Shown: positions 7,764 through 46,530 of the stretch, one piece after another
Layout: every line of letters starts with the position of its first letter
How positions within the stretch are numbered: position 1 is the first letter of the stretch
Assembly: GCA_041440805.1 (NCBI GenBank)
Contig: JASDVF010000050.1
Span: forward strand, 77,012 to 141,011
Direction of reading: 5' to 3'
Length of the DNA: 64,000 bases
From: Myxococcota bacterium
GTDB lineage: Bacteria; Myxococcota_A; UBA9160; UBA4427
The notes under the pieces: generated by a model
The model's database searches: none
What the model saw: the letters and a program-made list of their open reading frames with translations, nothing else
What the model was told of the DNA's origin: nothing
Program-made: the position numbers and the translations under genes

Positions 7764-7942
7764 AAAGTTCGGAAATCGGCTCGTAAACGAAGTTAATGAG
7801 ATCACTAGGGCCCCGGCACCGCGGGATGCGGTCTTCGCGTCGCATCGTCGCACGAGCATCCTCTTATGTCATGCCACGACTCCCAATCCGGTACCGCTGG
7901 TCAGCTTCGCCATTTTGTGGAAAGGTCATTGATGGAGGGCCT

Positions 7943-8944
7943 ATGTCATCGACCGCACTCGCTGCACCCAGCCATAGCTACCGCAGCGAAGAAGATCTCC
8001 AAGAGCAGTACCACGCACAGGGTTGGACCGACGGTCTCCCGATCGTCGCCCCTACGCCGGATCGCGTCGAAGCCTTCCTCGCGGAAGCGGGCCTGGCCCC
8101 AGATCTCCTCCTGGGTGAAGTCCCAACCCGCGAAGTTCGGGTCACGGCTGAACACGCCGCCATCAATGCAGTGATGGCGGGTTGCCGCCCCGAATATTTC
8201 CCCGTCGTCGTGGCCGCCCTTCGCGCGCACCTCCACGAGAAGGGCAACTGCCATAGCACGACCGGCACGCTATCCGGCGCAGTACAGACCGTGTTAGTCA
8301 ATGGCCCCATTAGAACAAGAATTGGCATCGAATGCGGTGCTGGATGCATGGGCCCGGGCTTCCGCGCCAACGCCACAATCGGACGCGCACTCCGCCTCGT
8401 GATTCGCAACGTGTGTCGCGCCATCCCCGGTGTACTGGACCGCGCAAGTTTCTCGAGTCCCCATCGCTTCAGCTTCTGTTTTGGTGAGAACGAAGAAGAG
8501 AGCAACTGGACGCCTCTCCACGTCGAACGTGGCTATCAGCTTGCTCAGAGCACAGTCACTGTTCACTCCGTCATGACCGTGACTTCCACGATCGACTTCA
8601 CCTCGCGCACCCCGGAAGCCCTGCTCGATTCGATGCTCCACACTCTTAGACAAAACGGAATTGCAGGGGACGATTTCGTCGGCGACGACGCCAACGTGAT
8701 GCTCGTCGTCGGCCCCGAACATCGCCGCTATTTCGACCGCGCCGGTTGGTCCAAGGAAGACATGCGCGACTACCTCTTCCCCCGGTTCGCAGAAGACCCG
8801 GGTCCGACTGGACGAATCGTCGGGCTCCCGCGCAAGGACGGAATTCTGATTGCTGCAGCCGGCGGCGACGGCATGGCTCAGACTTGGGTGTTGTTGCCGC
8901 ATCTCGCTGTCGCCATAACAGAAGCGATCGACGTACCGAACTAA
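7943..8944 (+). CDS. Uncharacterised conserved protein, partner of UGSC selenoprotein (copy 1)
   Basis: 333 codons from ATG 7943, with GGAGG 5-9 nt upstream. Paralog of 31294-32415, sharing the blocks GW(T/G)DGLP(I/L)V.PT..RVEAFL, A(I/V)NAVMAGCRP, GPG(F/C)RANA..GRALRLV and GPEH. No family name recognised. Confidence 0.7.
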   Translation: MSSTALAAPSHSYRSEEDLQEQYHAQGWTDGLPIVAPTPDRVEAFLAEAGLAPDLLLGEVPTREVRVTAEHAAINAVMAGCRPEYFPVVVAALRAHLHEKGNCHSTTGTLSGAVQTVLVNGPIRTRIGIECGAGCMGPGFRANATIGRALRLVIRNVCRAIPGVLDRASFSSPHRFSFCFGENEEESNWTPLHVERGYQLAQSTVTVHSVMTVTSTIDFTSRTPEALLDSMLHTLRQNGIAGDDFVGDDANVMLVVGPEHRRYFDRAGWSKEDMRDYLFPRFAEDPGPTGRIVGLPRKDGILIAAAGGDGMAQTWVLLPHLAVAITEAIDVPN

Positions 8945-9005
8945 TACGCACATCAGCCGCCGCCGGAAAGCCAATATTCCCGTCAACTTCATGAAGGAAT
9001 TAGCC

Positions 9006-9554
9006 ATGGACGAAAAAACACTGATCGCCCTCGATCCTACGAGCGGCCCCCTTGAGCGCAAAGACGATCGGGCGCTTCCCGCCCGCGTCGCTTCGCTTTC
9101 GGGGCATGTACTCGGCCTCGTGGCCAATGGACTCGGTGAATCCAAGTCCTTCCTGGACGCCGTGTACGGGGAGCTCACGAGCGCAGACGACACCCTCGCC
9201 GCGGTGCGTGTCCTAAAGCCGAGTGTCTCCGTCGCGCCGGAGCGACCGGATTGGGCTCGGCTCACCTCGGAGACCTCGCTGGCGATTGCCGGCTTCGGGG
9301 GTTGAGGCAGCTGCTCTGCGCGCAGTTTGCGCGACGCGATCGAGCTCGAGTGGGCGGGAATTCCGACCGCCGCCATCATCCACAAAGCCGTCGAGGGCTC
9401 TGCCCAAGCGATGGCTCGACTATCGGGAGTGCCCGATTTCGAGTTCATCCTGATCGACTACCCGGCCATCCCGACGGCCATCTGGAATCAAGATGAAATT
9501 CGCGATCTGGCACGAGAGGTCGCTCCCAAAGTGCGTGCCCGTCTGACGAGCTGA
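9006..9554 (+). CDS. UGSC-motif selenoprotein (copy 1); TGA 9303-9305 read as selenocysteine (residue 100 of 182)
   Basis: Listed ORFs 8991-9305 and 9327-9554 are in the same frame, separated only by TGA plus 7 sense codons. Read-through gives ..GFGG-U-GSCSARSLRD... The paralog at 32484-33011 has TGA at the homologous column in the same U-G-S-C context. A SECIS-like hairpin lies downstream. AAGGA is 6 nt upstream of ATG 9006. Confidence 0.8.
9319..9333 (+). promoter_or_regulatory. SECIS-like recoding hairpin for UGA 9303-9305
   Basis: CGCGCA-GUU-UGCGCG: a 5-6 bp GC-rich stem with G-U in the apical loop, starting 13 nt after the UGA. Confidence 0.6.
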
Positions 9555-9612
9555 ACCTCCAGAAACTCCGTCTACCATTGTTCCGAGCTCCAAATAAAAT
9601 ACAGGAAGAGCC

Positions 9613-9858
9613 ATGTCAGAAGCCGTGCAACAAGTTGTCGAGCAATTCAACGAGATCGTTAAACCCGATGGCGGACAGGTTCGTCTCTGCGAATTCGACA
9701 GCGGCGTGCTGCGCGTGAGCTATCGACCTGGCGTGAACGAAGAATGCGCGGAGTGCGTAATGGAGCCGGAAGCACTCGGCGCCATGATGCATGACATGCT
9801 CAAAGGACTGAGCGACGACGTATTGCGCGTCGAAGTCGAAACTGAAAAGGAATCATGA
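9613..9858 (+). CDS. NifU/Nfu-like small CxxC protein
   Basis: 81 aa. The pattern ..VKPDGGQVRL..FDSGVLRVSY....CAEC......LGAMMHDML resembles the NifU C-terminal (Nfu) domain with one CxxC pair. AGGAAGAG precedes the ATG. Confidence 0.65.
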   Translation: MSEAVQQVVEQFNEIVKPDGGQVRLCEFDSGVLRVSYRPGVNEECAECVMEPEALGAMMHDMLKGLSDDVLRVEVETEKES

Positions 9859-13603: not shown

Positions 13604-13975
13604 CTAATACCAGGCCCTGAGACTTTCGATTTTCCCATCCGCAGCAAAGCGGATGACATAAATCACGTCCATCGCTGGAGGACTCCCCGGCGCGTCCAAC
13701 GAAGCACGCACATGTGCGACTAATTCGTCGCCGCCTACGAGCGCTGGGCCTACAGGATCGACCCGCATCGTCCCGTTTCGGAGATAGGTCCCCGAATAGA
13801 AAGACCGGATTGCCGCAAGACCCGTCCAGGCCGGCGTGCCCACGGGATCTTCGACCACGGCGGATGATGAGAAAAGCTCGAGGACGCCCTCCAGATCGTT
13901 GCATGCATGGCGCTTCCGATAGGCTGCGAACGCTGCCTCAGACGCATCTCTCAGATCTCTGCTGTCCACACCCAA
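13604..13975 (-). CDS. SnoaL/NTF2-like (ketosteroid-isomerase-like) protein
   Basis: 123 aa with the typical pattern ..DLEGVLELFSSSAVVEDPVG...IRSFY.. of the NTF2-like fold. Confidence 0.7.
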   Translation of the reverse strand: MGVDSRDLRDASEAAFAAYRKRHACNDLEGVLELFSSSAVVEDPVGTPAWTGLAAIRSFYSGTYLRNGTMRVDPVGPALVGGDELVAHVRASLDAPGSPPAMDVIYVIRFAADGKIESLRAWY

Positions 13976-14092
13976 ACTCCCTGCGGATTGACTTCCGGAA
14001 TGCCACTCGATCGGTCTAGAATAGAAGACCGGAGCCCTTTGGCGGGATCCTGTTTCGCTTTTCAGTCAATCCCATTAGGAGATCATCGAATC

Positions 14093-15907
14093 ATGGACGC
14101 CAGGACCTTCGGACGCGACATCGCTCATATCAATCTCTCCGCGGGAACCGTCGAGAATCGGCCCGCCCCGCCTGAGTGGGTTGAGAAATATATCGGCGCA
14201 CGCGGGCTCGGTGTACGTTATGTCCTCGAGAACGGCCCCAACGTCGAGCCGCTCTCCCCGGAAAATATTCTCTGCTTCATGAACGGCCCGCTCTCCGGAA
14301 GCGAGATGAGCATGAGTGGCCGATGGGCCGCGGTCACCAAGAGTCCGCTCACGAATACAGTGACGGATAGCCATCAGGGTGGCTGGAGCGCGGCGCGGGT
14401 CCGCTGGGCTGGATTCGATGGCCTCATTTTTGAAGGTCGAGCCGATGCACCCGTCTATGTGTTCATCGAAGACGGCGAAATTTCGATTCGTGATGCCAGT
14501 GACACCTGGGGCATGGGCATTCATGAAACTGTTGCCTTCTATCAGGAGCGCTACGGGAAAAAGAATCTCTCCGTCAACGCCATAGGTCAGGCCGGCGAAA
14601 ATCTCTCCCGCTTCGCCGTTTGGGTCAACGAAGATGATCGCGCCTTCGGTCGCGGCGGCACCGGTGCCGTCGGTGGCAGCAAGAACCTCAAGGCGATCAT
14701 CGTTCGCGCAGCCAACAAGAAGAGCGATGTCCCGGACAAAGATGCCTGGCAGGCCGCTCGAAAATTGGCACTCAACACAATCCGCGACGAGAAAAATATC
14801 ACGAGCCCCAAAAAAGGCGGGCTTTCGGTCTACGGCACGAATGTGCTCATGAACGTAACGAATAGTATCGGCGCGTTAGGCGTCCGAAATAGCCAGCTCA
14901 CTTCTTTCGGCGAGCGCGCAGAGTCCCTCTCCGGCGAGTACGTCGAGGAAAATATTCTTGTAGGAAACCCGACGTGTCACGCCTGCCCCGTCGCCTGCAA
15001 GAAGGAAGTCGAAATCAAGGACGGCCCGTGGAAGGGCCTGAAGATGGAAAGTGTCGAATACGAGCCGGCCTGGGCGCTGGGCTCGAATTGCGACGTCGAC
15101 GATATTCGCTCGGTCGCGAAGCTGATCGATCAATGCAACGACTACGGCCTCGACCCGATCGAACTCGGCAATGTCTACTCCGTCTTCATGGAATGCACCG
15201 AAGAAGGCCTAACGAACGGGGAATCTCTCGCTTGGGGCGACGATGCGGCTATGGTGGCGCTGACTGAAAAACTCGCGCTCCGAGAAGGCATCGGGGACAA
15301 GCTCGCGGACGGGGCCGTCATCACGGCTCAGAATTTCGGACGTCCCGAAGCGGCGATGGCCTGCAAGGGCCAAGCGGTCGCGGCCTATGATCCGCGGGGA
15401 CTCAAGGGTATGGGACTGGGTTATGCGACGAGTAATCGCGGCGCCTGCCATCTGCGGGCGTATGTCGCGGCGGCGGAACTCGGGGTGATCGGCATCGAAG
15501 CGGACCCGCTTGAATGGAGAGGCAAAGGAGAACTAGTCATGACCTTCCAGGATCTCGCAGCCTTCTCCGACAGCCTAGACCTCTGCAAGTTCAGCGCATT
15601 CGCGCAGGGCGCGGACGAGTATGCCGCTCAGTGGAGCGGCGCCATGGGGATTGAGTGCACCGCCGAAGACGTCATGAAGGCGGGGGAGCGCGTCTACAAT
15701 CTCGAGCGCTACTACAACAACTTGGCTGGCTTCGGCGAAGGCAGCGACACCTTGCCAAAGCGCTTCACCGAGGAAGCTTCGACGCTCTCCGGCTCCAAGG
15801 GCCATGTTTCGGAGCTCGACCAGATGCTCGTCGAGTACTACGACGTCCGCGGCTGGAAGAACGGCGTCGTTCCCCAGGCGAAACTCGATGAGCTTCAAAT
15901 TCCCTAA
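14093..15907 (+). CDS. aor: Aldehyde:ferredoxin oxidoreductase family (tungsto-/molybdopterin enzyme)
   Basis: 604 aa from ATG 14093. 4Fe-4S ligand motif CHACPVAC plus a distal Cys in GLGYATSNRGACHLR, and a pterin-binding-type DSLDLCKF motif. The N-terminal MDARTFGRDIAHINLSAGTVE is typical of AOR. Confidence 0.9.
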   Translation: MDARTFGRDIAHINLSAGTVENRPAPPEWVEKYIGARGLGVRYVLENGPNVEPLSPENILCFMNGPLSGSEMSMSGRWAAVTKSPLTNTVTDSHQGGWSAARVRWAGFDGLIFEGRADAPVYVFIEDGEISIRDASDTWGMGIHETVAFYQERYGKKNLSVNAIGQAGENLSRFAVWVNEDDRAFGRGGTGAVGGSKNLKAIIVRAANKKSDVPDKDAWQAARKLALNTIRDEKNITSPKKGGLSVYGTNVLMNVTNSIGALGVRNSQLTSFGERAESLSGEYVEENILVGNPTCHACPVACKKEVEIKDGPWKGLKMESVEYEPAWALGSNCDVDDIRSVAKLIDQCNDYGLDPIELGNVYSVFMECTEEGLTNGESLAWGDDAAMVALTEKLALREGIGDKLADGAVITAQNFGRPEAAMACKGQAVAAYDPRGLKGMGLGYATSNRGACHLRAYVAAAELGVIGIEADPLEWRGKGELVMTFQDLAAFSDSLDLCKFSAFAQGADEYAAQWSGAMGIECTAEDVMKAGERVYNLERYYNNLAGFGEGSDTLPKRFTEEASTLSGSKGHVSELDQMLVEYYDVRGWKNGVVPQAKLDELQIP

Positions 15908-29644: not shown

Positions 29645-29962
29645 TTTGTCGGGGTCCTTTTGGGATTGATGAGAGGGTTAGCTGGGCGCCTAGGTTCGCC
29701 GGCCCAGAGCGATCGCGCCAGCCTTGAGAATCGCTTCGCGAAGGGCTCCGAAGGGCGCATTTTCCCGTCCTGCGAATGACGACAATCGGAGCTGACTAAG
29801 TGCTCTGAATTTGACACAATCGGCTCAGCCGATTGCGGTTCAGCCCCGGCAGCCCCATCCCAAATGCCGGCGCGTCGGGTGCATCCGAGAGCACCCACCA
29901 TCATTCGAAGGAACTCTTCGAACTCAACCGCAAGCGCATACTTACGAAACGAAAGGCATTTC

Positions 29963-31168
29963 ATGAGCGATCCGATCATCGTCATTTCCTCCGACACCCA
30001 CGCCGGCAACTCCGTCGAGGGCTACCGCGAATACCTCGACACAAAACATCAGGCGCTCTTCGACGAATGGCGCGGTTCGTACAAGAACCCGCAGAAGAAG
30101 CACATAGGATCCAAGAAGCACAAGAACTGGGACGATGCCGAGCGCATGGGCGACATGCAGACCGAAGGCGTCGTCGGCGAGATCGTCTTCCCGAATACGG
30201 TTCCGCCCTTCTTCCGCTCGAGCGTGCTCATCTGCGGCAACCCCCGCCCCGAAGACTATTTGATGCGCCTCGAAGGTATTCGCGCGCATAACAGATGGCT
30301 CAGCGAATGGTGCGGCGAATTCCCAGCCCAGCGCGCCGGCATCGGCCTCGTCTATCTGAACGACATCGACGAAGCGATTAAAGACATCGAGTGGATCGCC
30401 AAGAACAACTTGCGCGGCGGTGTCCTGCTCCCGCACGTTCCCGACGACTGCACGGGCTACATCAAGCCGCTCTATCACCCCGACTACGACCCTATGTGGG
30501 CACTTCTCGAAGAGACGGGCCTCGTCGTGAATCACCACGGCGGCACGGGCTCCCCAGACTACGGACGCCTCCCCGTCTCCCTTCCGATTCGACTGATCGA
30601 AACCGGCTTCTTCTCAACCCGAAGCTATAGCCAGCTACTTCTGTCCGGCGTCTTCCACCGCTTCCCGAAGCTCAAGTACATCATCACCGAGTCCGGATGC
30701 GCCTGGGTACCGGAAACCCTGCAGCGCCTCGACATGGCCTGGAAGCGCATCTCTTCAGGCGCGGTCGGCGAGTTCCAGTTCGCGGAGGGTGTCACGACGC
30801 CCGAGCCGCCGAGCTTCTACGCAAAGCAGAACTGCTACTACGGTGCGAGTTCGGCCTCCCCGCCGGAGCTCAAGGATCGCGACGTGATCGGCACAGAGCG
30901 TATTCTCTGGGGCAGCGATTATCCCCACTACGAAGGCACCTACCCCGATACCCGCTTGGCGTTGCGGCACACGTTCAACACGTGCGGCGAGGACGATACG
31001 CGGGCGATGCTCGGGCTGAATGCCGCCAAGCTCTACGATTTCGATCTCGAAGCCCTCAAGCCAATCTCGGATAAGTGCGGACCGACTTGGGACGAACTGA
31101 GCGTGCCGCTCGCGCCCGAAGAGTTTCCCACGGACACCCACACGAACGCGTTCCGCACACTCGACTGA
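29963..31168 (+). CDS. Amidohydrolase-2 (ACMSD-like metal-dependent hydrolase/decarboxylase)
   Basis: VISSDTHAG metal motif near the N-terminus and ILWGSDYPHYEG near the C-terminus. Start at ATG 29963. Confidence 0.85.
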   Translation: MSDPIIVISSDTHAGNSVEGYREYLDTKHQALFDEWRGSYKNPQKKHIGSKKHKNWDDAERMGDMQTEGVVGEIVFPNTVPPFFRSSVLICGNPRPEDYLMRLEGIRAHNRWLSEWCGEFPAQRAGIGLVYLNDIDEAIKDIEWIAKNNLRGGVLLPHVPDDCTGYIKPLYHPDYDPMWALLEETGLVVNHHGGTGSPDYGRLPVSLPIRLIETGFFSTRSYSQLLLSGVFHRFPKLKYIITESGCAWVPETLQRLDMAWKRISSGAVGEFQFAEGVTTPEPPSFYAKQNCYYGASSASPPELKDRDVIGTERILWGSDYPHYEGTYPDTRLALRHTFNTCGEDDTRAMLGLNAAKLYDFDLEALKPISDKCGPTWDELSVPLAPEEFPTDTHTNAFRTLD

Positions 31169-31293
31169 GGTCTCTCGCCTCTTTTTTTAGGGGCGGTGCC
31201 TCAACTGAGGACGCACAGTAGTAAAATGTTAGGCGGTCGCGTCGACGTGAATGCACGTCGGCGCGCATGCACATAGTCGACCAAGGAGATGGC

Positions 31294-32415
31294 ATGGCCG
31301 ATTCGGGCGAAATCGAATGTGAAGACGATGTTTGCGCCCTTCCGGGTGCGACCCTCGAATCCTTCGAATCGGCGCGGGTCTCGCCGGACGTTAAAATTCC
31401 CGAAGGTGATTTCGAGGCGTGGATGGATCTCGCCGACACACGCGGCTGGGGGGACGGCCTTCCGCTCGTGCCTCCGACCGAGGCTCGGGTCGAAGCCTTC
31501 CTCGAAAAGCTGCCCCGTCAGATTGATCCTGATGCAGTCGTCGCAGTCCTGCCGCCCCGCGGCGGACTCGTCACGCGACGACTCCTCGCAGTCAACGCCG
31601 TAATGGCTGGCTGTCGCCCCAACATGCTCCCAGTTCTCACGACCGCCGTCCGCGGACTCGCCTTCCCGGAAATCAATCTTCGCGGCATCAACGCGACGAC
31701 TCATCCGGTGGCTCCCCTCATCCTGGTTCATGGCGCCGCGACGGACGAGCTCGGCTTCAATGCCGGGCTAGGCGCCTTCGGCCCCGGCTGTCGCGCGAAT
31801 GCCTCCGTCGGCCGAGCTCTTAGACTCGTCCTCATGAACATCGCGGGCGCGCGCCCAGGAGCCGGCGATGCCGCAACTCAAGGACAGCCCTCGAAATACA
31901 GCTACTGCGCCGCCGAGAATTGCGCCGAGAGCCCCTGGGAAAGCTATCCGGAAAGCCTCGGCCTTCGAGCCCCGAGCGCTGTCACCGTCGCTTGCGGTGA
32001 GAATCCGCATAACGTCCAGGATCACGATGTTCGCTCGCCAATTCATACGCTCGAGCAAATCGCGAGCACGATGCTGACCCTGGGCTCGAATAACGCTCCG
32101 GTCTCGAGTGCCGAATGGTTCGTTTTTCTCGGCCCCGAGCACGCCGAGGCAATCGCAGCCGACGGCTTTTCACGAAAAGACGTGCAGGATTTCCTCTTCG
32201 AAAATGCGCGGCTTCCCATGTCGCGATTCCGGCGCGCCTTCGAAGTCACTCAATACGCTGAATGGGAAGACGCGCTCCCGGATGACGGTATGAAGCCGAT
32301 CATGCGCGATCGCGACCTCATCAAAGTGATGGTCGTAGGCGGCGCTGGAAAACACTCTTGCGTAGTGCCGAGCTGGGGCATGACCGAAAGCGCCACACTG
32401 CCCCTAGAGCCCTAA
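31294..32415 (+). CDS. Uncharacterised conserved protein, partner of UGSC selenoprotein (copy 2)
   Basis: 373 codons from ATG 31294, with AAGGAG 6 nt upstream. Paralog of 7943-8944 (GWGDGLPLVPPTEARVEAFL, AVNAVMAGCRP, GPGCRANASVGRALRLV, GPEHA). Confidence 0.7.
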   Translation: MADSGEIECEDDVCALPGATLESFESARVSPDVKIPEGDFEAWMDLADTRGWGDGLPLVPPTEARVEAFLEKLPRQIDPDAVVAVLPPRGGLVTRRLLAVNAVMAGCRPNMLPVLTTAVRGLAFPEINLRGINATTHPVAPLILVHGAATDELGFNAGLGAFGPGCRANASVGRALRLVLMNIAGARPGAGDAATQGQPSKYSYCAAENCAESPWESYPESLGLRAPSAVTVACGENPHNVQDHDVRSPIHTLEQIASTMLTLGSNNAPVSSAEWFVFLGPEHAEAIAADGFSRKDVQDFLFENARLPMSRFRRAFEVTQYAEWEDALPDDGMKPIMRDRDLIKVMVVGGAGKHSCVVPSWGMTESATLPLEP

Positions 32416-32483
32416 AAGGGCGCTACATCCTCCCCGTCCCGGGCACCGGCACCCGGCGCGTGGGCGAAGAAAGAGACCAAAGC

Positions 32484-33011
32484 ATGTCGTCGACCTTGAT
32501 CTACTCTCCCGAGGGACATACGGACGCACTCCTCGAACGCACACCGCGAACCTCTATCAAAAAGCTCGCAGGTCTTCGCATTGGCGTCCTCGACAACGGC
32601 AAGGCAGGCGCGGATCACCTGCTAGGCAGGATGGGCGCAGAGCTCGCAAAGAAGACCGGTGGAATTTACGTTGGCTGCTTCCGCAAGCAGACCGCCGCCA
32701 CGCCCTGTGAGACCGAGCTGATCGATCGCCTCGCCAAGGAAGTCGAGGTCGTCCTCACGGGTACCGCTGATTGAGGGAGCTGCACGTCGTGGAGTCTCCA
32801 CGACACGAAATCCCTTGAAGCCCGAGGCGTCGCCACGGTCGTCGTCGCGAGCGAAGCCTTTCGCGATCTCGCAGATCAGATGGCGAGGGAGCTACTCTTT
32901 CCTGATGCGCGCCGAATCATCGTCCCGCACCCGATCGGCGGCACACCCGGCGCAACCCTGGATGCATGGGCAGACGCGGCACTGGACGCGATCCTCGAAC
33001 AGCTCCGTTAG
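32484..33011 (+). CDS. UGSC-motif selenoprotein (copy 2); TGA 32772-32774 read as selenocysteine (residue 97 of 175)
   Basis: ORF 32358-32774 ends ..LTGTAD at the TGA. The same frame stays open to TAG 33009-33011 and encodes GSCTSWSLHDTKSLEARGVATVVVASEAF...ILEQLR, which is homologous to the C-terminal half of copy 1. That half is absent from the ORF track because it has no Met. A SECIS-like hairpin starts 11 nt after the UGA. Confidence 0.8.
32786..32804 (+). promoter_or_regulatory. SECIS-like recoding hairpin for UGA 32772-32774
   Basis: GUCGUGG-AGUCU-CCACGAC: a perfect 7-bp stem and 5-nt loop containing G-U, with an 11-nt spacer after the UGA. Confidence 0.65.
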
Positions 33012-33096
33012 TTCGCCCTCGCCCAAAACCAAAATCCCTAAGCAGCCCCAAAACTCCCGTGGCAGCGCCCCGGAATGCTCGAAGCCCAAAACGCGA

Positions 33097-33138
33097 AAGG
33101 GCCGCTCTCTCTTACGAGAAAGCGGCCCTTCGATTTTT
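33097..33138. terminator. Rho-independent terminator between convergent genes
   Basis: 10-bp stem AAGGGCCGCT / AGCGGCCCTT (33097-33106 / 33121-33130) followed by CGATTTTT. Confidence 0.6.
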
Positions 33139-33210
33139 GACGGGCTCGGGCTCTATTACAGTTACAGAAGCCGAAAAGGATCCCGTGCCCGTCTGCCGTG
33201 CTAGTCAGGT

Positions 33211-33918
33211 CTAGCGTCGGCGAACCGTGGCCAGGCCAGCGAGACCGAGGCCCATCAGCAGGGCGGTGCCCGGCTCCGGGACGACCGTCAGCGCGAAGGT
33301 GTCGCCGGTTGAGGCGATCTCGTTTCCCTGGAAGTCCAGAGCGAGAACCGAGAACTGCAGGTTCGCGACGGCGCCTTGGTCCGCATACGCGAACACGTTT
33401 TGGAGCGTGATCTGGAAGTGGATGTCGCCACCCGTGACGAGGCTGCCACCGATACCGTAGTCGGTCAGGCCATCGCCATCCGCACCGGAAGGACTAATCC
33501 CGTCGAACATGTTGACGGTGTACGCCTGCGGGTTGAGGTGGTTGATGGAGAAGCGTTCAACCGCATTCGTACCATTGTTATTGTCGATCGAGCCAGAGAT
33601 GATAGTTCCGTCGCTAAGGGGATCAATACCGAGAGACTCTGCGACAACGTTGCTGGCCCCCAGTTGAAGGCCAAAATCGCGGACGCCGGTCGCGTCCGCC
33701 AGGTCCATACCCGTCAAGTCGGCCGAGAGGCCGAAGATCTGGGGCTCCGTTCCGTCGAAGGTCATGCGAAGGTCGAACGTGACCGTGTCGCCGACGGCAA
33801 GAGTGCCACCAGCACCGCCACCGGTTGCCTGGACGACTTCAATGCCTAGAGCGGATGCCATTGACGGTATGGCCAAGAGGGTCGCGGCCAGCGCGAGTGC
33901 CTTGGTGAATCGAATCAT
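33211..33918 (-). CDS. PEP-CTERM sorting-domain secreted protein
   Basis: Signal peptide MIRFTKALALAATLLAIPSMASA and C-terminal VPEPGTALLMGLGLAGLATVRRR (PEP motif, TM helix, Arg cluster). Confidence 0.85.
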   Translation of the reverse strand: MIRFTKALALAATLLAIPSMASALGIEVVQATGGGAGGTLAVGDTVTFDLRMTFDGTEPQIFGLSADLTGMDLADATGVRDFGLQLGASNVVAESLGIDPLSDGTIISGSIDNNNGTNAVERFSINHLNPQAYTVNMFDGISPSGADGDGLTDYGIGGSLVTGGDIHFQITLQNVFAYADQGAVANLQFSVLALDFQGNEIASTGDTFALTVVPEPGTALLMGLGLAGLATVRRR

Positions 33919-43442: not shown

Positions 43443-44588
43443 CTAACGACCACCTTCGAGACTCACGCTCTTCACCAACACGAAGACACGTCGCCCCGGC
43501 GCGAGGCCGAGTTCTTCCACCGCAGCCAACGTCAGCCGCGCACGGACATGGGCGGACCTGAGCTGCACTCGGGCTTCGACTTCACCACTTCCGGGGGTGC
43601 GGATTAAGTCTGTGATTTCGCCCGGCAATATATTTCGAATACTGAGCCCTGAGGGCCGCTCCGTCGCCAGTGCCACGTCACGCGCGCGCACACGCAGGCG
43701 CAACGTATCTCCGATCGACGAACCTTCGGCCAATGGAATCGTGAGCGCATCGCCGTCGAGATCAACGGTCGTGAGATGAAGCCGCGTGTCGTGGCGCAAA
43801 ACTCTTCCTTCGACGAGCACCCCAGCCTCAAAGCGACCCGCTATCGGTTCAAGGTCAAGACGTTCGAGAATCTCCGCCGTCCCGCCGTACATCTGAACCT
43901 GCCCTTCGGAAAGCACCATCATTCTATCCGCGAGGCGGGCCACTTCATCAAGGTCGTGGCTCACGAAGAGCGTCGGAATCATAAAGCGCCGGGTCACGTC
44001 TTCTAGATAGGGAAGAATCTCCGCCTTCCTCTCGCGATCCAACGCCGCAAGAGGCTCGTCTAGCAGCAGGAGGTCCGGGCTCGTAAGCAGCGTTCGCGCC
44101 AGCGCGACCCTCTGCTGCTCGCCACCTGATAGCGAAGTAACGTTTCGGCCTAACATCATGCCTAGGTCGAGCGCCTCGATGACTTCATCACGCGCGATGC
44201 CCTGCTGCATTCCCGCCTTCGCCGCCCGCGTATTTCGCCGCTTCCACGCAAAGTCTAGATTTCCGCGTACGTCGAGGTGCGGAAAGAGTCGAACGTCCTG
44301 AAAGAGCATTCCAATCGAACGTCGATTCGGGGGCTCAAAGATCCCGGCCTCCGCGTCGAACCAAACCTGGTTGCCTAAGGCGATGCGGCCTCGAACGGGC
44401 TTCTCGAATCCAGCAATCGCGCGCAGGAGAGTCGTCTTCCCACTCCCACTTCTTCCGAAAACTGCGGTGACACCGCTCGGCGTCAGACTTTCGTCGAGCT
44501 CAAGGGTAAATTCGGCCAGTACGACGCGTAGACACAGCGCAAACGCCTCGCCATCCTCTCTCTCTTCGATGCGATCGCTATCCGACAC
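43443..44588 (-). CDS. modC: Molybdate ABC transporter ATP-binding protein
   Basis: Walker A GRSGSGKTT, signature LSGGEQQRV, Walker B LLLLDEP, and a C-terminal TOBE/Mop-like domain. GTG 44588 overlaps the modB stop (GTGTCGGATAG). Confidence 0.85.
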   Translation of the reverse strand: MSDSDRIEEREDGEAFALCLRVVLAEFTLELDESLTPSGVTAVFGRSGSGKTTLLRAIAGFEKPVRGRIALGNQVWFDAEAGIFEPPNRRSIGMLFQDVRLFPHLDVRGNLDFAWKRRNTRAAKAGMQQGIARDEVIEALDLGMMLGRNVTSLSGGEQQRVALARTLLTSPDLLLLDEPLAALDRERKAEILPYLEDVTRRFMIPTLFVSHDLDEVARLADRMMVLSEGQVQMYGGTAEILERLDLEPIAGRFEAGVLVEGRVLRHDTRLHLTTVDLDGDALTIPLAEGSSIGDTLRLRVRARDVALATERPSGLSIRNILPGEITDLIRTPGSGEVEARVQLRSAHVRARLTLAAVEELGLAPGRRVFVLVKSVSLEGGR

Positions 44589-45255
44589 GTACGCGCGCCT
44601 TTCGATCGAAGGTGTATACGAGCAGTAGAACGATGAAAGAAAAGGCGAGCAGCCCAGCAGACAAAGCGTGCGCCTCCGCATATTGAAGCGTTTCGACATG
44701 GTCGTAGATCGCGATGGAAAGCACGCGGGTTTCGCCCGGGATATTCCCACCAACCATCAGCACCACGCCGAATTCGCCGAGGGTGTGGGCGAAGGTCAGA
44801 ACGCCGGCCGTAATAAAGCCACGCGCAGAGAGCGGCGCCACGACCCGAAAGAACGCGTCGACCGGCGAGGCCCCCAAACTTGCTGCCGCTTCGATCGGTC
44901 CTCTACCGACGGCCTCGAACGCACTCGTGAGCGGCTGCACCATGAACGGCAGCGAGTAGAGAATCGACGCAAAAACCAGACCCGTAAATGAGAAGGTCAG
45001 CGTCTCGCCGGAGACTTTTACCCAAAAGGCGCCCAGGGGAGAGCGGGGACTCATCACTAACAAGAGATAGAAACCCAAGACGGTCGGAGGGAGTACTAGG
45101 GGCAAGGCCGTCACGGCTTCCACAAAAGGCCTGAGCCTTGACTTCGTACTCGTCAGCCACCACGCGAGCGGCGTTCCGACGACGAACAAAATCACCGTCG
45201 TCAGGCTCGCGAGTTTGATCGTCAGCCAGATCGGGGAAGCATCAGCCATCGTCAT
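44578..45255 (-). CDS. modB: Molybdate ABC transporter permease
   Basis: 225 aa MetI-type permease with EAA-like loop EAAASLGASPVDAFFRVVAP. Overlaps the modA stop by 4 nt. Confidence 0.9.
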   Translation of the reverse strand: MTMADASPIWLTIKLASLTTVILFVVGTPLAWWLTSTKSRLRPFVEAVTALPLVLPPTVLGFYLLLVMSPRSPLGAFWVKVSGETLTFSFTGLVFASILYSLPFMVQPLTSAFEAVGRGPIEAAASLGASPVDAFFRVVAPLSARGFITAGVLTFAHTLGEFGVVLMVGGNIPGETRVLSIAIYDHVETLQYAEAHALSAGLLAFSFIVLLLVYTFDRKARVRVG

Positions 45256-46040
45256 TCGACTTCGTACCCCGCCTTCCTAATAAATTCCTTCGCAACGTCA
45301 CTCGCTAAATAGGCGACGAATGCCGTGGCGGCTGCATTCTCTTTTGCGCGCGAGAGCTGGACGACACCTTGCTCAATCGGTGAATGGAGCGCCAACGGGA
45401 TCTCCCAAACCGTTCCGTCCAGCGGGTCCGAAGCAGGTAGCTGCGCCCTCGCTATGAATCCAACCGTCGCATTGCCCGTGGCGACCATCGCGTAGGTCTG
45501 TCCGATATTTTCGCCGAACACCATTCGAGCTCGGACCTCATCCATTAGGTTGAGGCCCTCGAGCACTTCACGCGAAGCCTGACCGTAGGGTGCTAGTTCC
45601 GGGTTCGCGAGAGCCACGTGGCGAGACCGGTTTTTGCTCAGCCATCCGGGCCCCGGGGACGAGTTCAGCTCTGATCGCCCGCCGGCTGCCCCCACCTCCG
45701 GCCGCCACAAAAGAAGTCTCCCAAGGGCATAGACCCGAAGCGTTTCTCCCAAGGCGACCGACTCGGCCACCAGCCGTTCCGGGCGCGCCATATCCGCAGA
45801 GAGAAAAACATCAAAGGGCGCACCGTTTTGAATCTGCGCGTAGAGCTTGCCGCTTGAGCCCGTCGCCACTCGAATCTCGTGAATATTCTGCGCTTCGAAG
45901 ACTTCGACGAGTCCTCTCGCTGTCGCCGCGAAGTTGGTGGAGACGGCGACCGTGGCGGACTCGGCGAATGCGATACCGGGCAACGTCCCAAGGAACGCGA
46001 CCGCTGCCCAAATCCATCTCTTTGAATGCGCTCTAGCCAC
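45252..46040 (-). CDS. modA: Molybdate ABC transporter periplasmic binding protein
   Basis: ModA-like sequence (VAVSTNFAA...GSSGKLYAQIQNGAPFDVFLSAD...ANPELAPYG). GTG 46040 gives a normal signal peptide (ARAHSKRWIWAAVAFLGTLPGIAFA). The listed ATG 46175 would add about 45 atypical residues and overlap the divergent gene, so the start is uncertain. Confidence 0.75.
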   Translation of the reverse strand: MARAHSKRWIWAAVAFLGTLPGIAFAESATVAVSTNFAATARGLVEVFEAQNIHEIRVATGSSGKLYAQIQNGAPFDVFLSADMARPERLVAESVALGETLRVYALGRLLLWRPEVGAAGGRSELNSSPGPGWLSKNRSRHVALANPELAPYGQASREVLEGLNLMDEVRARMVFGENIGQTYAMVATGNATVGFIARAQLPASDPLDGTVWEIPLALHSPIEQGVVQLSRAKENAAATAFVAYLASDVAKEFIRKAGYEVE

Positions 46041-46173
46041 AAGCGAGAAGCTAGCAGCGAAGAAGATCGTGGTGCGGCTCAGGGAAGTTTCAGCGTTAGA
46101 GTATGGACTCTTACTGACCGGGCCAGCCACGGCCCGGTGGATGCGATTCATGCCCGAATCGTTGGAGTTGCCC

Positions 46174-46530
46174 ATGCCCCTATCTCATCTCGAGCGGAGC
46201 GAACTCTCAGCTGCACTAGGCGACCTCATACAAGACCTTGAAACGTCTTTGGCGGAGACCGCGGCGGCGGCGCGGCCCGTCGAACTCGACCAACCTGCTA
46301 TGGGACGCGTCTCTCGGATCGATGCAATCCAGCAGCAGAAAATGCTCGAAGCAAATCGCTTAGCCCAACAAGCACAACTTCAGCTGGCACGCTCTGCACG
46401 CCACCGATTCGGCGAAGACGAGTACGGAGACTGCATGGCCTGCGGTGAAGAAATCGGGGTCGCGCGACTCCGCGCCCGCCCCGAGTCTCTCTACTGCATA
46501 GAGTGTCAGACTGCGCGCGAGCGATCCTGA
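46174..46530 (+). CDS. DksA/TraR-family C4 zinc-finger protein
   Basis: 118 aa from ATG 46174 with GGAG upstream. Coiled-coil region plus CMACGEEI...YCIECQ zinc finger. Confidence 0.75.
   Translation: MPLSHLERSELSAALGDLIQDLETSLAETAAAARPVELDQPAMGRVSRIDAIQQQKMLEANRLAQQAQLQLARSARHRFGEDEYGDCMACGEEIGVARLRARPESLYCIECQTARERS

What the first reader, a model, noticed from the sequence alone, without database searches (positions are those of the whole stretch)
32484..33011. Hidden selenoprotein 2: TGA 32772-32774 with a textbook-spaced SECIS-like hairpin; the C-terminal half is missing from the ORF track
ORF 32358-32774 ends ..VVLTGTAD at the TGA, but the same frame stays open for 78 more codons to TAG 33009-33011. 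It encodes GSCTSWSLHDTKSLEARGVATVVVASEAFRDLADQMARELLFPDARRIIVPHPIGG...ILEQLR. This aligns with the post-UGA half of copy 1 (UGSC..SL.D...LE..G..T). Exactly 11 nt after the UGA there is a perfect 7-bp hairpin, GUCGUGG-AGUCU-CCACGAC (32786-32804), with GU in a 5-nt loop. The only listed ORF here (32815-33204) is out of frame and Ser/Arg-rich. A gene caller would truncate this protein at residue 96.
Basis: partly seen in the sequence, partly recalled or inferred. Interest (0 to 1): 0.85.

Follow-up and report, generated by a model that had tools for sequence, protein, structure and literature searches.

The report
Truncated UGSC-family selenoprotein gene

Summary

The read-through protein passes the curated cut-offs of NCBIfam NF041046 "UGSC family (seleno)protein" and Pfam PF24696. 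The TGA aligns with an invariant Cys (ADCGSC) in full-length Cys homologs.

Orthologs from independent metagenomes all keep the TGA. Downstream of it they change mostly at third codon positions.

In 36 of 36 distinct Sec-form genes from Myxococcota and Acidimicrobiia, codons +4 to +10 are frozen as ACG TCG TGG AGT [C/G]TC CAC GAC, apart from one GAT at +10 that still pairs as G·U. That stretch is the hairpin. In 52 Cys-form genes the same codons vary freely and none uses AGU. The hairpin meets all four criteria of the published bacterial SECIS model.

The family has been a known selenoprotein of unknown function since about 2007, so novelty is low.

One side observation may be new. Every UGSC gene examined (80 of 80 genome loci) lies directly downstream of a ~350-390-aa gene that has no Pfam or NCBIfam model. 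The selenocysteine machinery of the source genome could not be checked.

The parts
32484..33011 (+). Complete coding sequence of a 175-residue UGSC-family selenoprotein (ATG 32484, Sec codon 97, TAG 33009-33011).
   Evidence: Translation. NF041046 scores 127.1 bits against a cut-off of 125, and PF24696 scores 141.3 bits. Full-length Cys homologs align end to end. The frame is conserved in orthologs.
32772..32774 (+). UGA read as selenocysteine (U97 of the U-G-S-C motif).
   Evidence: It aligns with an invariant Cys in 17 Cys homologs. TGA is kept in all 11 orthologous loci and in 36 distinct Sec-form genes. TGA is an ordinary stop for 13 of 44 window genes, so there is no global reassignment.
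32786..32804 (+). Bacterial SECIS upper stem-loop: GUCGUGG / AGUCU / CCACGAC, 11 nt after the UGA. The loop GU lies 20-21 nt after the UGA.
   Evidence: It is essentially invariant in 36 of 36 Sec-form genes and not maintained in Cys forms: 2 of 57 have all 7 pairs and none uses AGU. It meets all four constraints of the bSECIS model in PMC13188914.
32771..32818 (+). Possible extended lower helix (UUGAGGGA with UCCCUUGA) that encloses the UGA. This part is optional and weakly supported.
   Evidence: It is predicted in the MFE fold and kept in close orthologs, but it is not conserved in more distant Sec forms.
31267..32415 (+). Upstream partner gene (382 aa as an ORF; gene callers start it at 31294, giving 373 aa). 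It belongs to an uncharacterised family that is always found directly upstream of UGSC genes.
   Evidence: No Pfam or NCBIfam hit. At least 3681 homologs. A partner homolog lies directly upstream on the same strand in 80 of 80 genome loci. In the reverse direction, all four partner homologs looked up are followed by a UGSC gene.
33099..33138 (+). Intrinsic-terminator-like hairpin (GGGCCGCU.CUCU/AGAG.AGCGGCCC) followed by UUCGAUUUUU. It probably marks the end of the two-gene operon.
   Evidence: Fold of 33085-33145: -31.5 kcal/mol, z = -5.14, 0 of 200 shuffles fold as well. The simple scanner missed it.
9006..9554 (+). Paralogous UGSC selenoprotein ('copy 1'). Its TGA is at 9303-9305. Its own hairpin CGCGCA/GUU/UGCGCG (9319-9333) is in the same register as the copy 2 hairpin.
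   Evidence: The loop GU is 20 nt after the UGA in both copies, and two stem pairs differ by compensatory changes (read directly).
7796..8944 (+). Paralog of the partner gene, directly upstream of copy 1.
   Evidence: 36% identity to 31267-32415, E = 5e-47.

Best explanation
The region 32484-33011 is one gene for a 175-residue selenoprotein of the UGSC family.

How it is made: during translation the UGA at 32772 is read as selenocysteine. The mRNA hairpin 11 nt downstream (32786-32804, with GU in its apical loop) acts as a bacterial SECIS element. By the established bacterial mechanism, it recruits SelB carrying Sec-tRNA(Sec) to the ribosome. This step is inferred.

What the protein looks like: it carries a U97-G-S-C100 pair at the N-terminus of a helix in a five-fold beta-alpha (flavodoxin-like) fold. 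That is the typical position of a redox-active CxxC-type centre that cycles through a selenenylsulfide. This step is also inferred.

Context: the gene is co-transcribed with, and most likely works with, the uncharacterised ~380-aa protein encoded directly upstream. The biochemical reaction of the pair is unknown. Gene callers end the protein at residue 96 because they read the UGA as a stop.
For: Family membership: NF041046 scores 127.1 bits against a cut-off of 125, and PF24696 scores 141.3 bits.

The UGA column is an invariant Cys in the motif ADCGSCTSWS across 17 Cys homologs, which align with the window protein over 97-99% of its length.

The TGA and the open downstream frame are kept in 11 loci from independent metagenomes. 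Downstream substitutions are 27 synonymous to 5 non-synonymous against L006, distributed 3/3/30 by codon position.

Among species-representative genomes, TGA and TGC/TGT forms coexist in Myxococcota and Acidimicrobiia.

In 36 of 36 distinct Sec forms, all 7 stem pairs are present and the loop serine codon is AGU. In Cys forms 2 of 57 have all 7 pairs and 0 of 57 use AGU. Fisher p is about 1e-23 to 1e-26, not corrected for relatedness.

Synonymous variation in Sec forms is essentially zero at codons +4 to +10 only, the one exception being a single GAT at +10 that still pairs.

The hairpin meets the published bSECIS constraints (PMC13188914): a 5-nt loop of the form N1-G-U-N-N2, a 7-bp stem, 18 nt from the UGA to the loop, and an MFE of -18.2 kcal/mol.

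Copy 1 has a hairpin of different sequence in the same register, with two compensatory pair changes.

TGA is a normal stop for 13 of 44 genes in the window.

The AF2 model of Cys homolog P0006 has pLDDT 91 and shows five beta-alpha units, with the motif at the N-terminus of helix 98-113.

Partner linkage holds in 80 of 80 loci.
Against: No selA, selB, selD or tRNA-Sec lies in the 64-kb window. The rest of the genome could not be searched.

No Rfam family matches. This is expected, because SECIS elements embedded in bacterial coding sequence are too varied to model as one family.

Within the main clade the hairpin is invariant, so it shows no covariation. Part of its conservation overlaps a conserved peptide (TSWS[LV]HD). 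The Sec-versus-Cys codon contrast is what separates RNA-level from protein-level constraint.

The NF041046 score is only 2 bits above the cut-off.

There is no experimental evidence here for Sec insertion or for any function. The redox role and the partnership are inferences from the motif and from gene order.
Confidence: 0.93

Rival explanations
1. The TGA is a genuine stop. The gene encodes only the 96-residue N-terminal half, and the downstream sequence is untranslated.
For: Public gene calls give 96-aa or 138-aa products. TGA is a normal stop elsewhere in the window.
Against: The downstream 78 codons show purifying selection in the same frame: 27 synonymous to 5 non-synonymous differences, mostly at third positions. 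They align with the C-terminal half of full-length Cys homologs. The frame stays open to a second stop in every ortholog long enough to reach it.
Confidence: 0.01
2. The gene is a pseudogene, or the TGA is a sequencing or assembly error in a gene that normally has Cys (TGC/TGT) there.
For: Cys-form homologs with TGC or TGT are common. TGC to TGA is a single-base change.
Against: TGA is present in 11 independently assembled loci and in 36 distinct Sec-form sequences from two phyla. These also share a Sec-specific hairpin and codon choice that Cys forms lack. The downstream frame is not degraded.
Confidence: 0.01
3. The UGA is recoded, but to an amino acid other than selenocysteine. One route would be Cys inserted by a tRNA-Sec-like tRNA. 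Another would be near-cognate read-through stimulated by the hairpin.
For: The genome's Sec machinery was not observed. The aligned residue in homologs is Cys.
Against: The hairpin fits the SelB-type bSECIS model, including the loop G-U. The family has been classified as a selenoprotein in several independent surveys (PMC2398784, PMC1976440, PMC13188914). There is no global UGA reassignment.
Confidence: 0.03

Closest known systems
UGSC family (seleno)protein (NCBIfam NF041046, Pfam PF24696). This is the 'UGSC-containing protein' of the Zhang and Gladyshev selenoproteome surveys, with Hyphomonas neptunium ABI76733.1 as the listed example.
   Same: The HMM scores are above the curated cut-offs. 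The U-G-S-C motif is in the same column. The length is the same (about 175 aa). Sec and Cys forms coexist. A SECIS lies directly downstream of the UGA. The function is unknown.
   Different: Nothing essential differs. This copy belongs to an uncultured Myxococcota-like ('Deltaproteobacteria bacterium UBA4427'-related) lineage and is truncated in public protein sets. The literature guesses a thioredoxin-like fold, whereas the AF2 model is a five-fold beta-alpha flavodoxin-like sandwich.
Consensus bacterial SECIS element (the bSECISearch model; the prototype is E. coli fdhF).
   Same: It is a stem-loop in the coding sequence just after the UGA. It has a small apical loop with G-U in the N1-G-U-N-N2 pattern, a 7-8 bp upper stem, 18 nt from the UGA to the loop, and an MFE well below -7.5 kcal/mol. 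The 11-nt spacer matches the spacing of the minimal E. coli element (from my own knowledge of Liu et al. 1998, not checked here).
   Different: It has no bulged U in the stem, unlike fdhF (from memory). The sequence is family-specific and essentially invariant across two phyla, so it is supported by the Sec-versus-Cys contrast and by comparison with the paralog, not by covariation within the clade.
Other UxxC/CxxU thiol-oxidoreductase-like bacterial selenoproteins (Trx-like, Prx-like, DsbA-like, PrdB).
   Same: Sec replaces the first Cys of a two-residue redox motif at the start of a helix, and Cys homologs exist (PMC2398784).
   Different: There is no sequence or confident structural relationship to these families. 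Pfam finds only PF24696. A PDB profile search finds nothing below E = 0.5. Foldseek gives only generic flavodoxin-like matches at TM about 0.5.

Membership tests
UGSC family (seleno)protein (NF041046 / PF24696) | Whole-protein HMM score at or above the curated cut-off. | tested here: met
   NF041046 scores 127.1 bits against a cut-off of 125 (residues 30-175, profile positions 2-147 of 147). PF24696 scores 141.3 bits against 25. The query had U replaced by C.
UGSC family (seleno)protein (NF041046 / PF24696) | A U/C-G-S-C motif at the conserved position. | tested here: met
   The TGA column is an invariant Cys, followed by invariant G, S and C in alignment A1. The motif TG[STA]AD[U/C]GSC is present in all loci.
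UGSC family (seleno)protein (NF041046 / PF24696) | Homology continues through the C-terminal half, after the U. | tested here: met
   Cys homologs cover 97-99% of the query. Conserved positions downstream include L111, E112 and P150 (invariant) and H149, G152 and G153 (nearly invariant).
Bacterial SECIS (bSECIS consensus model, PMC13188914 Fig. 2A) | An apical loop of 3-9 nt and an upper stem of 4-16 bp. | tested here: met
   A 5-nt loop (AGUCU) on a 7-bp stem, or a 3-nt loop on an 8-bp stem.
Bacterial SECIS (bSECIS consensus model, PMC13188914 Fig. 2A) | G in one of the first two loop positions, usually as N1-G-[G/U]-N-N2. | tested here: met
   The loop is A-G-U-C-U. AGU is fixed in 36 of 36 Sec forms and absent from 57 of 57 Cys forms.
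Bacterial SECIS (bSECIS consensus model, PMC13188914 Fig. 2A) | 16-37 nt between the UGA and the apical loop. | tested here: met
   18 nt (32775-32792).
Bacterial SECIS (bSECIS consensus model, PMC13188914 Fig. 2A) | MFE of -7.5 kcal/mol or lower. | tested here: met
   -18.2 kcal/mol for 32775-32815.
Bacterial SECIS (bSECIS consensus model, PMC13188914 Fig. 2A) | Binds SelB and directs Sec insertion. | not testable with these tools
   This needs a reporter assay, a binding assay or 75Se labelling.
Sec-decoding organism | selA, selB, selC (tRNA-Sec) and selD are present in the genome. | tested here: inconclusive
   None lies in the 64-kb window: there are no tRNAs and no Sel domains among 48 window ORFs scanned.
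Thioredoxin-fold oxidoreductases (the fold suggested in the literature) | A thioredoxin fold. | tested here: not met
   The AF2 model of Cys homolog P0006 (pLDDT 91) has five beta-alpha units. The best PDB matches are flavodoxin-like proteins (7qw4, 3fni, flavodiiron flavodoxin domains) at TM about 0.5. No thioredoxin-fold protein appears in the top 50.

The most novel reading that the evidence does not exclude
The UGSC (seleno)protein and the ~350-390-aa protein always encoded directly upstream may form a so far undescribed two-component redox enzyme.

What is known about the upstream protein:
- It has at least 3681 homologs but no Pfam or NCBIfam model.
- It has no confident structural relative in the PDB.
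- It has four conserved Cys residues.

In some lineages the pair is joined by a NifU-like third module, either fused to UGSC or encoded as an 81-aa ORF. The pair recurs beside amidohydrolase, TauD and P450 catabolic genes. On this reading the selenoprotein would be the redox-active small subunit. The gene pairing has not, as far as I could find, been reported.
Probability: 0.5. Interest if true: 0.45.

Novelty: new member of a known kind. Interest (0 to 1): 0.25.

Why it matters
For annotation: the gene, its paralog at 9006-9554 and many orthologs in public metagenome protein sets are stored as 94-96-aa or 138-aa fragments. In one locus (L097) the C-terminal part is also called as a separate 61-aa fragment. 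Recognising the Sec codon restores the 175-residue protein.

For biology: the result adds nothing fundamental about selenocysteine decoding. It is a clean example of a family-specific SECIS that is frozen at the nucleotide level across two phyla and relaxed in the Cys forms.

The more useful lead is the obligatory pairing with an unmodelled partner family. It offers a handle on the function of one of the most abundant aquatic selenoprotein families, which has been listed as 'function unknown' since 2007.

Tried and rejected
- Rfam at gathering threshold on the whole window: no hit. This is not informative for SECIS elements embedded in coding sequence.
- tRNA scan of the window: no tRNA genes, so no tRNA-Sec here.
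- PDB sequence and profile searches for UGSC and for the partner: nothing below E = 0.5.
I modelled Cys homolog P0006 (49% identical) instead.
- Foldseek for UGSC: only generic flavodoxin-like matches at TM about 0.5.
- Foldseek for the partner: only weak matches at TM 0.2-0.26 to class I fumarate hydratases and Toblerone-fold cyclic amide hydrolases. I do not treat these as homology.
- Lenient Pfam and NCBIfam scans of 40 partner homologs: nothing consistent.
- I tried to check whether the 'Unknown_1' domain that the GOS paper reports as fused to UGSC is the partner or the NifU-like module. The supplementary figure is held only as an image.
- Pfam scan of 48 window ORFs for SelA, SelB or SelD: none.
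- The lower helix 32771-32818 was considered as part of the SECIS. It is not conserved beyond close relatives, so I list it only as possible.
- Folding energy alone does not support the copy 1 hairpin (z = +1.46). Its support comes from sharing the register and loop with copy 2.

Full report
**1. The observation**

The sequence is as described.
- ATG at 32484-32486, preceded by a purine-rich stretch (GAAGAAAGAGA, 32467-32477).
- TGA at 32772-32774, after ...VVLTGTAD.
- The same frame stays open for 78 more codons to TAG 33009-33011.
- GTCGTGG (32786-32792) and CCACGAC (32798-32804) form a perfect 7-bp stem around AGTCT. ViennaRNA closes one more A-U pair, giving 8 bp and a GUC triloop.
- Exactly 11 nt separate the TGA from the stem.

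The mechanical ORF list shows only 32358-32774 and the out-of-frame, Ser/Arg-rich 32815-33204. The first of these uses a TTG start that overlaps the upstream gene.

As a chance estimate, 11 of 1724 TGA trinucleotides in the window (0.6%) are followed by a perfect hairpin of 7 bp or more that fits the bSECIS model. The 41-nt segment folds better than all 200 shuffles (z = -3.15).

**2. What the protein is**

With U replaced by C, the 175-residue read-through protein scores as follows:
- 127.1 bits on NCBIfam NF041046 "UGSC family (seleno)protein" (cut-off 125).
- 141.3 bits on Pfam PF24696 "UGSC family".

A search of 5.8 billion proteins found 274 homologs. The closest ones (82-100% identity) are 96-aa or 138-aa fragments that end at the TGA. 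Many Cys-form proteins of about 175-180 aa, mostly from Acidimicrobiia MAGs and some named "UGSC family (seleno)protein", cover 97-99% of the query.

In the alignment, the TGA column is an invariant Cys within ADCGSCTSWS. Conservation continues to the C-terminus: L111, E112 and P150 are invariant, and H149, G152 and G153 nearly so.

**3. Orthologous loci**

Eleven loci from independent metagenome assemblies (L001-L011, 82-100% protein identity) all have TGA at the same codon. Every one that is long enough keeps the frame open to a second stop.

Against L006 the counts are:
- Upstream half: 35 synonymous and 17 non-synonymous codon differences.
- Downstream half: 27 synonymous and 5 non-synonymous codon differences, with nucleotide differences distributed 3/3/30 over codon positions.

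The part after the TGA is therefore translated and under purifying selection.

**4. The hairpin is specific to Sec forms**

One scan of species-representative genomes returned 80 further loci. TGA and TGC/TGT forms both occur in Myxococcota/"Deltaproteobacteria" MAGs and in Acidimicrobiia. Cultured Streptodolium and Yinghuangia have Cys forms.

| | All 7 stem pairs | Loop serine codon is AGU |
|---|---|---|
| Distinct Sec-form genes of this clade | 36 of 36 | 36 of 36 |
| Distinct Cys-form sequences | 2 of 57 | 0 of 57 |

Cys forms use AGC, TCG or TCC for that serine, even when the peptide is the same TSWSVHD. Fisher p is about 1e-23 and 1e-26. These values are inflated by shared ancestry.

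- In Sec forms, codons +4 to +10 use a single codon each: ACG TCG TGG AGT [C/G]TC CAC GAC, apart from one GAT at +10, which still pairs as G·U.
- Codons -12 to +3 and +12 to +26 show ordinary synonymous variation.
- In Cys forms, positions +4 to +10 vary (ACC/ACG, AGC/TCG/TCC, GTG/GTC, CAC/CAT).

This separates RNA-level constraint from the peptide constraint.

The element meets all four constraints of the published bSECIS model (PMC13188914):
- Loop of 3-9 nt and stem of 4-16 bp.
- G in the first two loop positions. The A-G-U-C-U loop fits N1-G-[G/U]-N-N2.
- 16-37 nt from the UGA to the loop (18 nt here).
- MFE of -7.5 kcal/mol or lower (-18.2 here).

The paralog at 9006-9554 (27% identity; TGA at 9303) has a hairpin of different sequence, CGCGCA-GUU-UGCGCG. 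Its loop GU is again 20 nt after the UGA. Two stem pairs differ from copy 2 by compensatory changes (U-A to C-G, and G-C to C-G), as read.

**5. Alternatives**

- Global UGA reassignment is excluded, because 13 of 44 window genes end in TGA.
- A real stop, a pseudogene and a sequencing error are each contradicted by sections 3 and 4.
- Recoding to something other than Sec cannot be formally excluded.

The window is about 94% identical in DNA to a contig of "Deltaproteobacteria bacterium UBA4427", and 99.3-99.9% identical to five metagenome contigs.

**6. Context and likely working**

The gene lies 68 nt downstream of a 382-aa ORF (31267-32415). It is followed by a strong terminator-like hairpin plus a U-run (33099-33138; z = -5.1).

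The upstream protein:
- It has a paralog (36% identity) directly upstream of copy 1.
- It has at least 3681 homologs.
- It has no Pfam or NCBIfam model, and 40 members scanned leniently gave nothing consistent.
- Its AF2 model (pLDDT 84) has no confident PDB relative (TM 0.26 or lower).

A partner homolog lies directly upstream on the same strand in 80 of 80 genome loci. All four partner homologs looked up are followed by a UGSC gene. Some Acidimicrobiia carry two such pairs.

The AF2 model of Cys homolog P0006 (pLDDT 91) is a five-fold beta-alpha sandwich. The U/CxxC motif sits at the N-terminus of the third helix. Foldseek finds only generic flavodoxin-like matches.

My reading has three steps:
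- Sec insertion directed by the SECIS. The sequence evidence is strong, and the mechanism is inferred from the established bacterial pathway.
- A selenenylsulfide redox centre (inferred from the motif).
- Function together with the partner protein (inferred from gene order).

**7. Comparison with what is known**

The "UGSC-containing protein" has been listed as a selenoprotein of unknown function since at least 2007 (PMC1976440). In the GOS data it is one of the most abundant aquatic selenoprotein families, with 255 Sec forms and 21 Cys forms (PMC2398784). The 2026 review lists it with NF041046 (PMC13188914).

The finding is therefore correct, but it is a new member of a known kind. The partner linkage and the Sec-specific frozen SECIS are, as far as I could find, not described. 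They are modest additions.

**Verdict**

Novelty is low and interest is 0.25.

Noticed in passing
window 7796-9858 (+): Copy 1 sits in a three-gene arrangement. The partner paralog is at 7796-8944. The UGSC selenoprotein is at 9006-9554, with its TGA at 9303. An 81-aa ORF at 9613-9858 carries a NifU-like domain (PF01106, E = 1.5e-5, 25.5 bits, just under the gathering score of 27). The same NifU-like module is fused to the C-terminus of UGSC in P0092 and P0113 (Ilumatobacteraceae and others). It may be the 'Unknown_1' fusion domain of the GOS paper.
   Followed up: partly
window 31267-32415 and 7796-8944; L012-L097: A large protein family (at least 3681 homologs, about 350-390 aa) is always found directly upstream of UGSC genes. 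It has a conserved GWGDGLP motif and four conserved Cys residues. It has no Pfam or NCBIfam model and no confident PDB structural relative.
   Followed up: partly
P0187 (654 aa); window 29864-31168; L096; L097: One database protein is an Amidohydro_2-partner fusion. Amidohydrolase genes (Amidohydro_2 or Amidohydro_3) recur immediately next to the partner-UGSC pair, together with TauD-type dioxygenase, Rieske oxygenase, P450 and F420H2-quinone-reductase-like genes. This suggests a catabolic context. The fusion could also be a gene-calling artefact.
   Followed up: no
L012, L022, L044, L049, L056 (Acidimicrobiia): A second, divergent UGSC paralog (motif VGLGTCGSCTSFS) lies on the opposite strand. 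In L012, where gene calls were available, it has its own upstream ~350-aa gene and the two pairs are divergently arranged.
   Followed up: no
codon -1 relative to the UGA (window 32769-32771): The Asp codon just before the Sec codon is GAU in 32 of 36 Sec forms but GAC in 42 of 52 Cys forms. This may be a context preference (U before the UGA) for Sec decoding, or a phylogenetic signal.
   Followed up: no
window 32880-33011; L007, L011, L096, L097: Gene callers sometimes call the C-terminal part of the selenoprotein as a separate small ORF. In L097 the 61-aa call carries a PF24696 hit. In L007, L011 and L096 the 41-43-aa calls lie at the matching position but carry no Pfam hit. So the family appears in databases as two fragments.
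   Followed up: partly
window 31167-31181 (+): A terminator-like hairpin plus a T-run (GAGGTCTCTCGCCTC TTTTTTT) overlaps the stop codon of the amidohydrolase gene. This suggests that the partner-UGSC pair is its own transcription unit. The scan expects about 2 such sites by chance in this region.
   Followed up: no
window 13907-15907 (+) and 43443-46175 (-): The window carries an aldehyde:ferredoxin oxidoreductase (AFOR_N and AFOR_C), a family known (from my own knowledge, not checked here) to use a tungsten or molybdenum cofactor. Elsewhere it carries an ABC transporter with a TOBE domain and an SBP_bac_11 binding protein, which resembles a molybdate/tungstate uptake system.
   Followed up: no
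window 33211-33918 (-): A PEP-CTERM-anchored protein is encoded convergently just downstream of the UGSC gene. This neighbour is conserved in L002, L006, L014 and L096.
   Followed up: no
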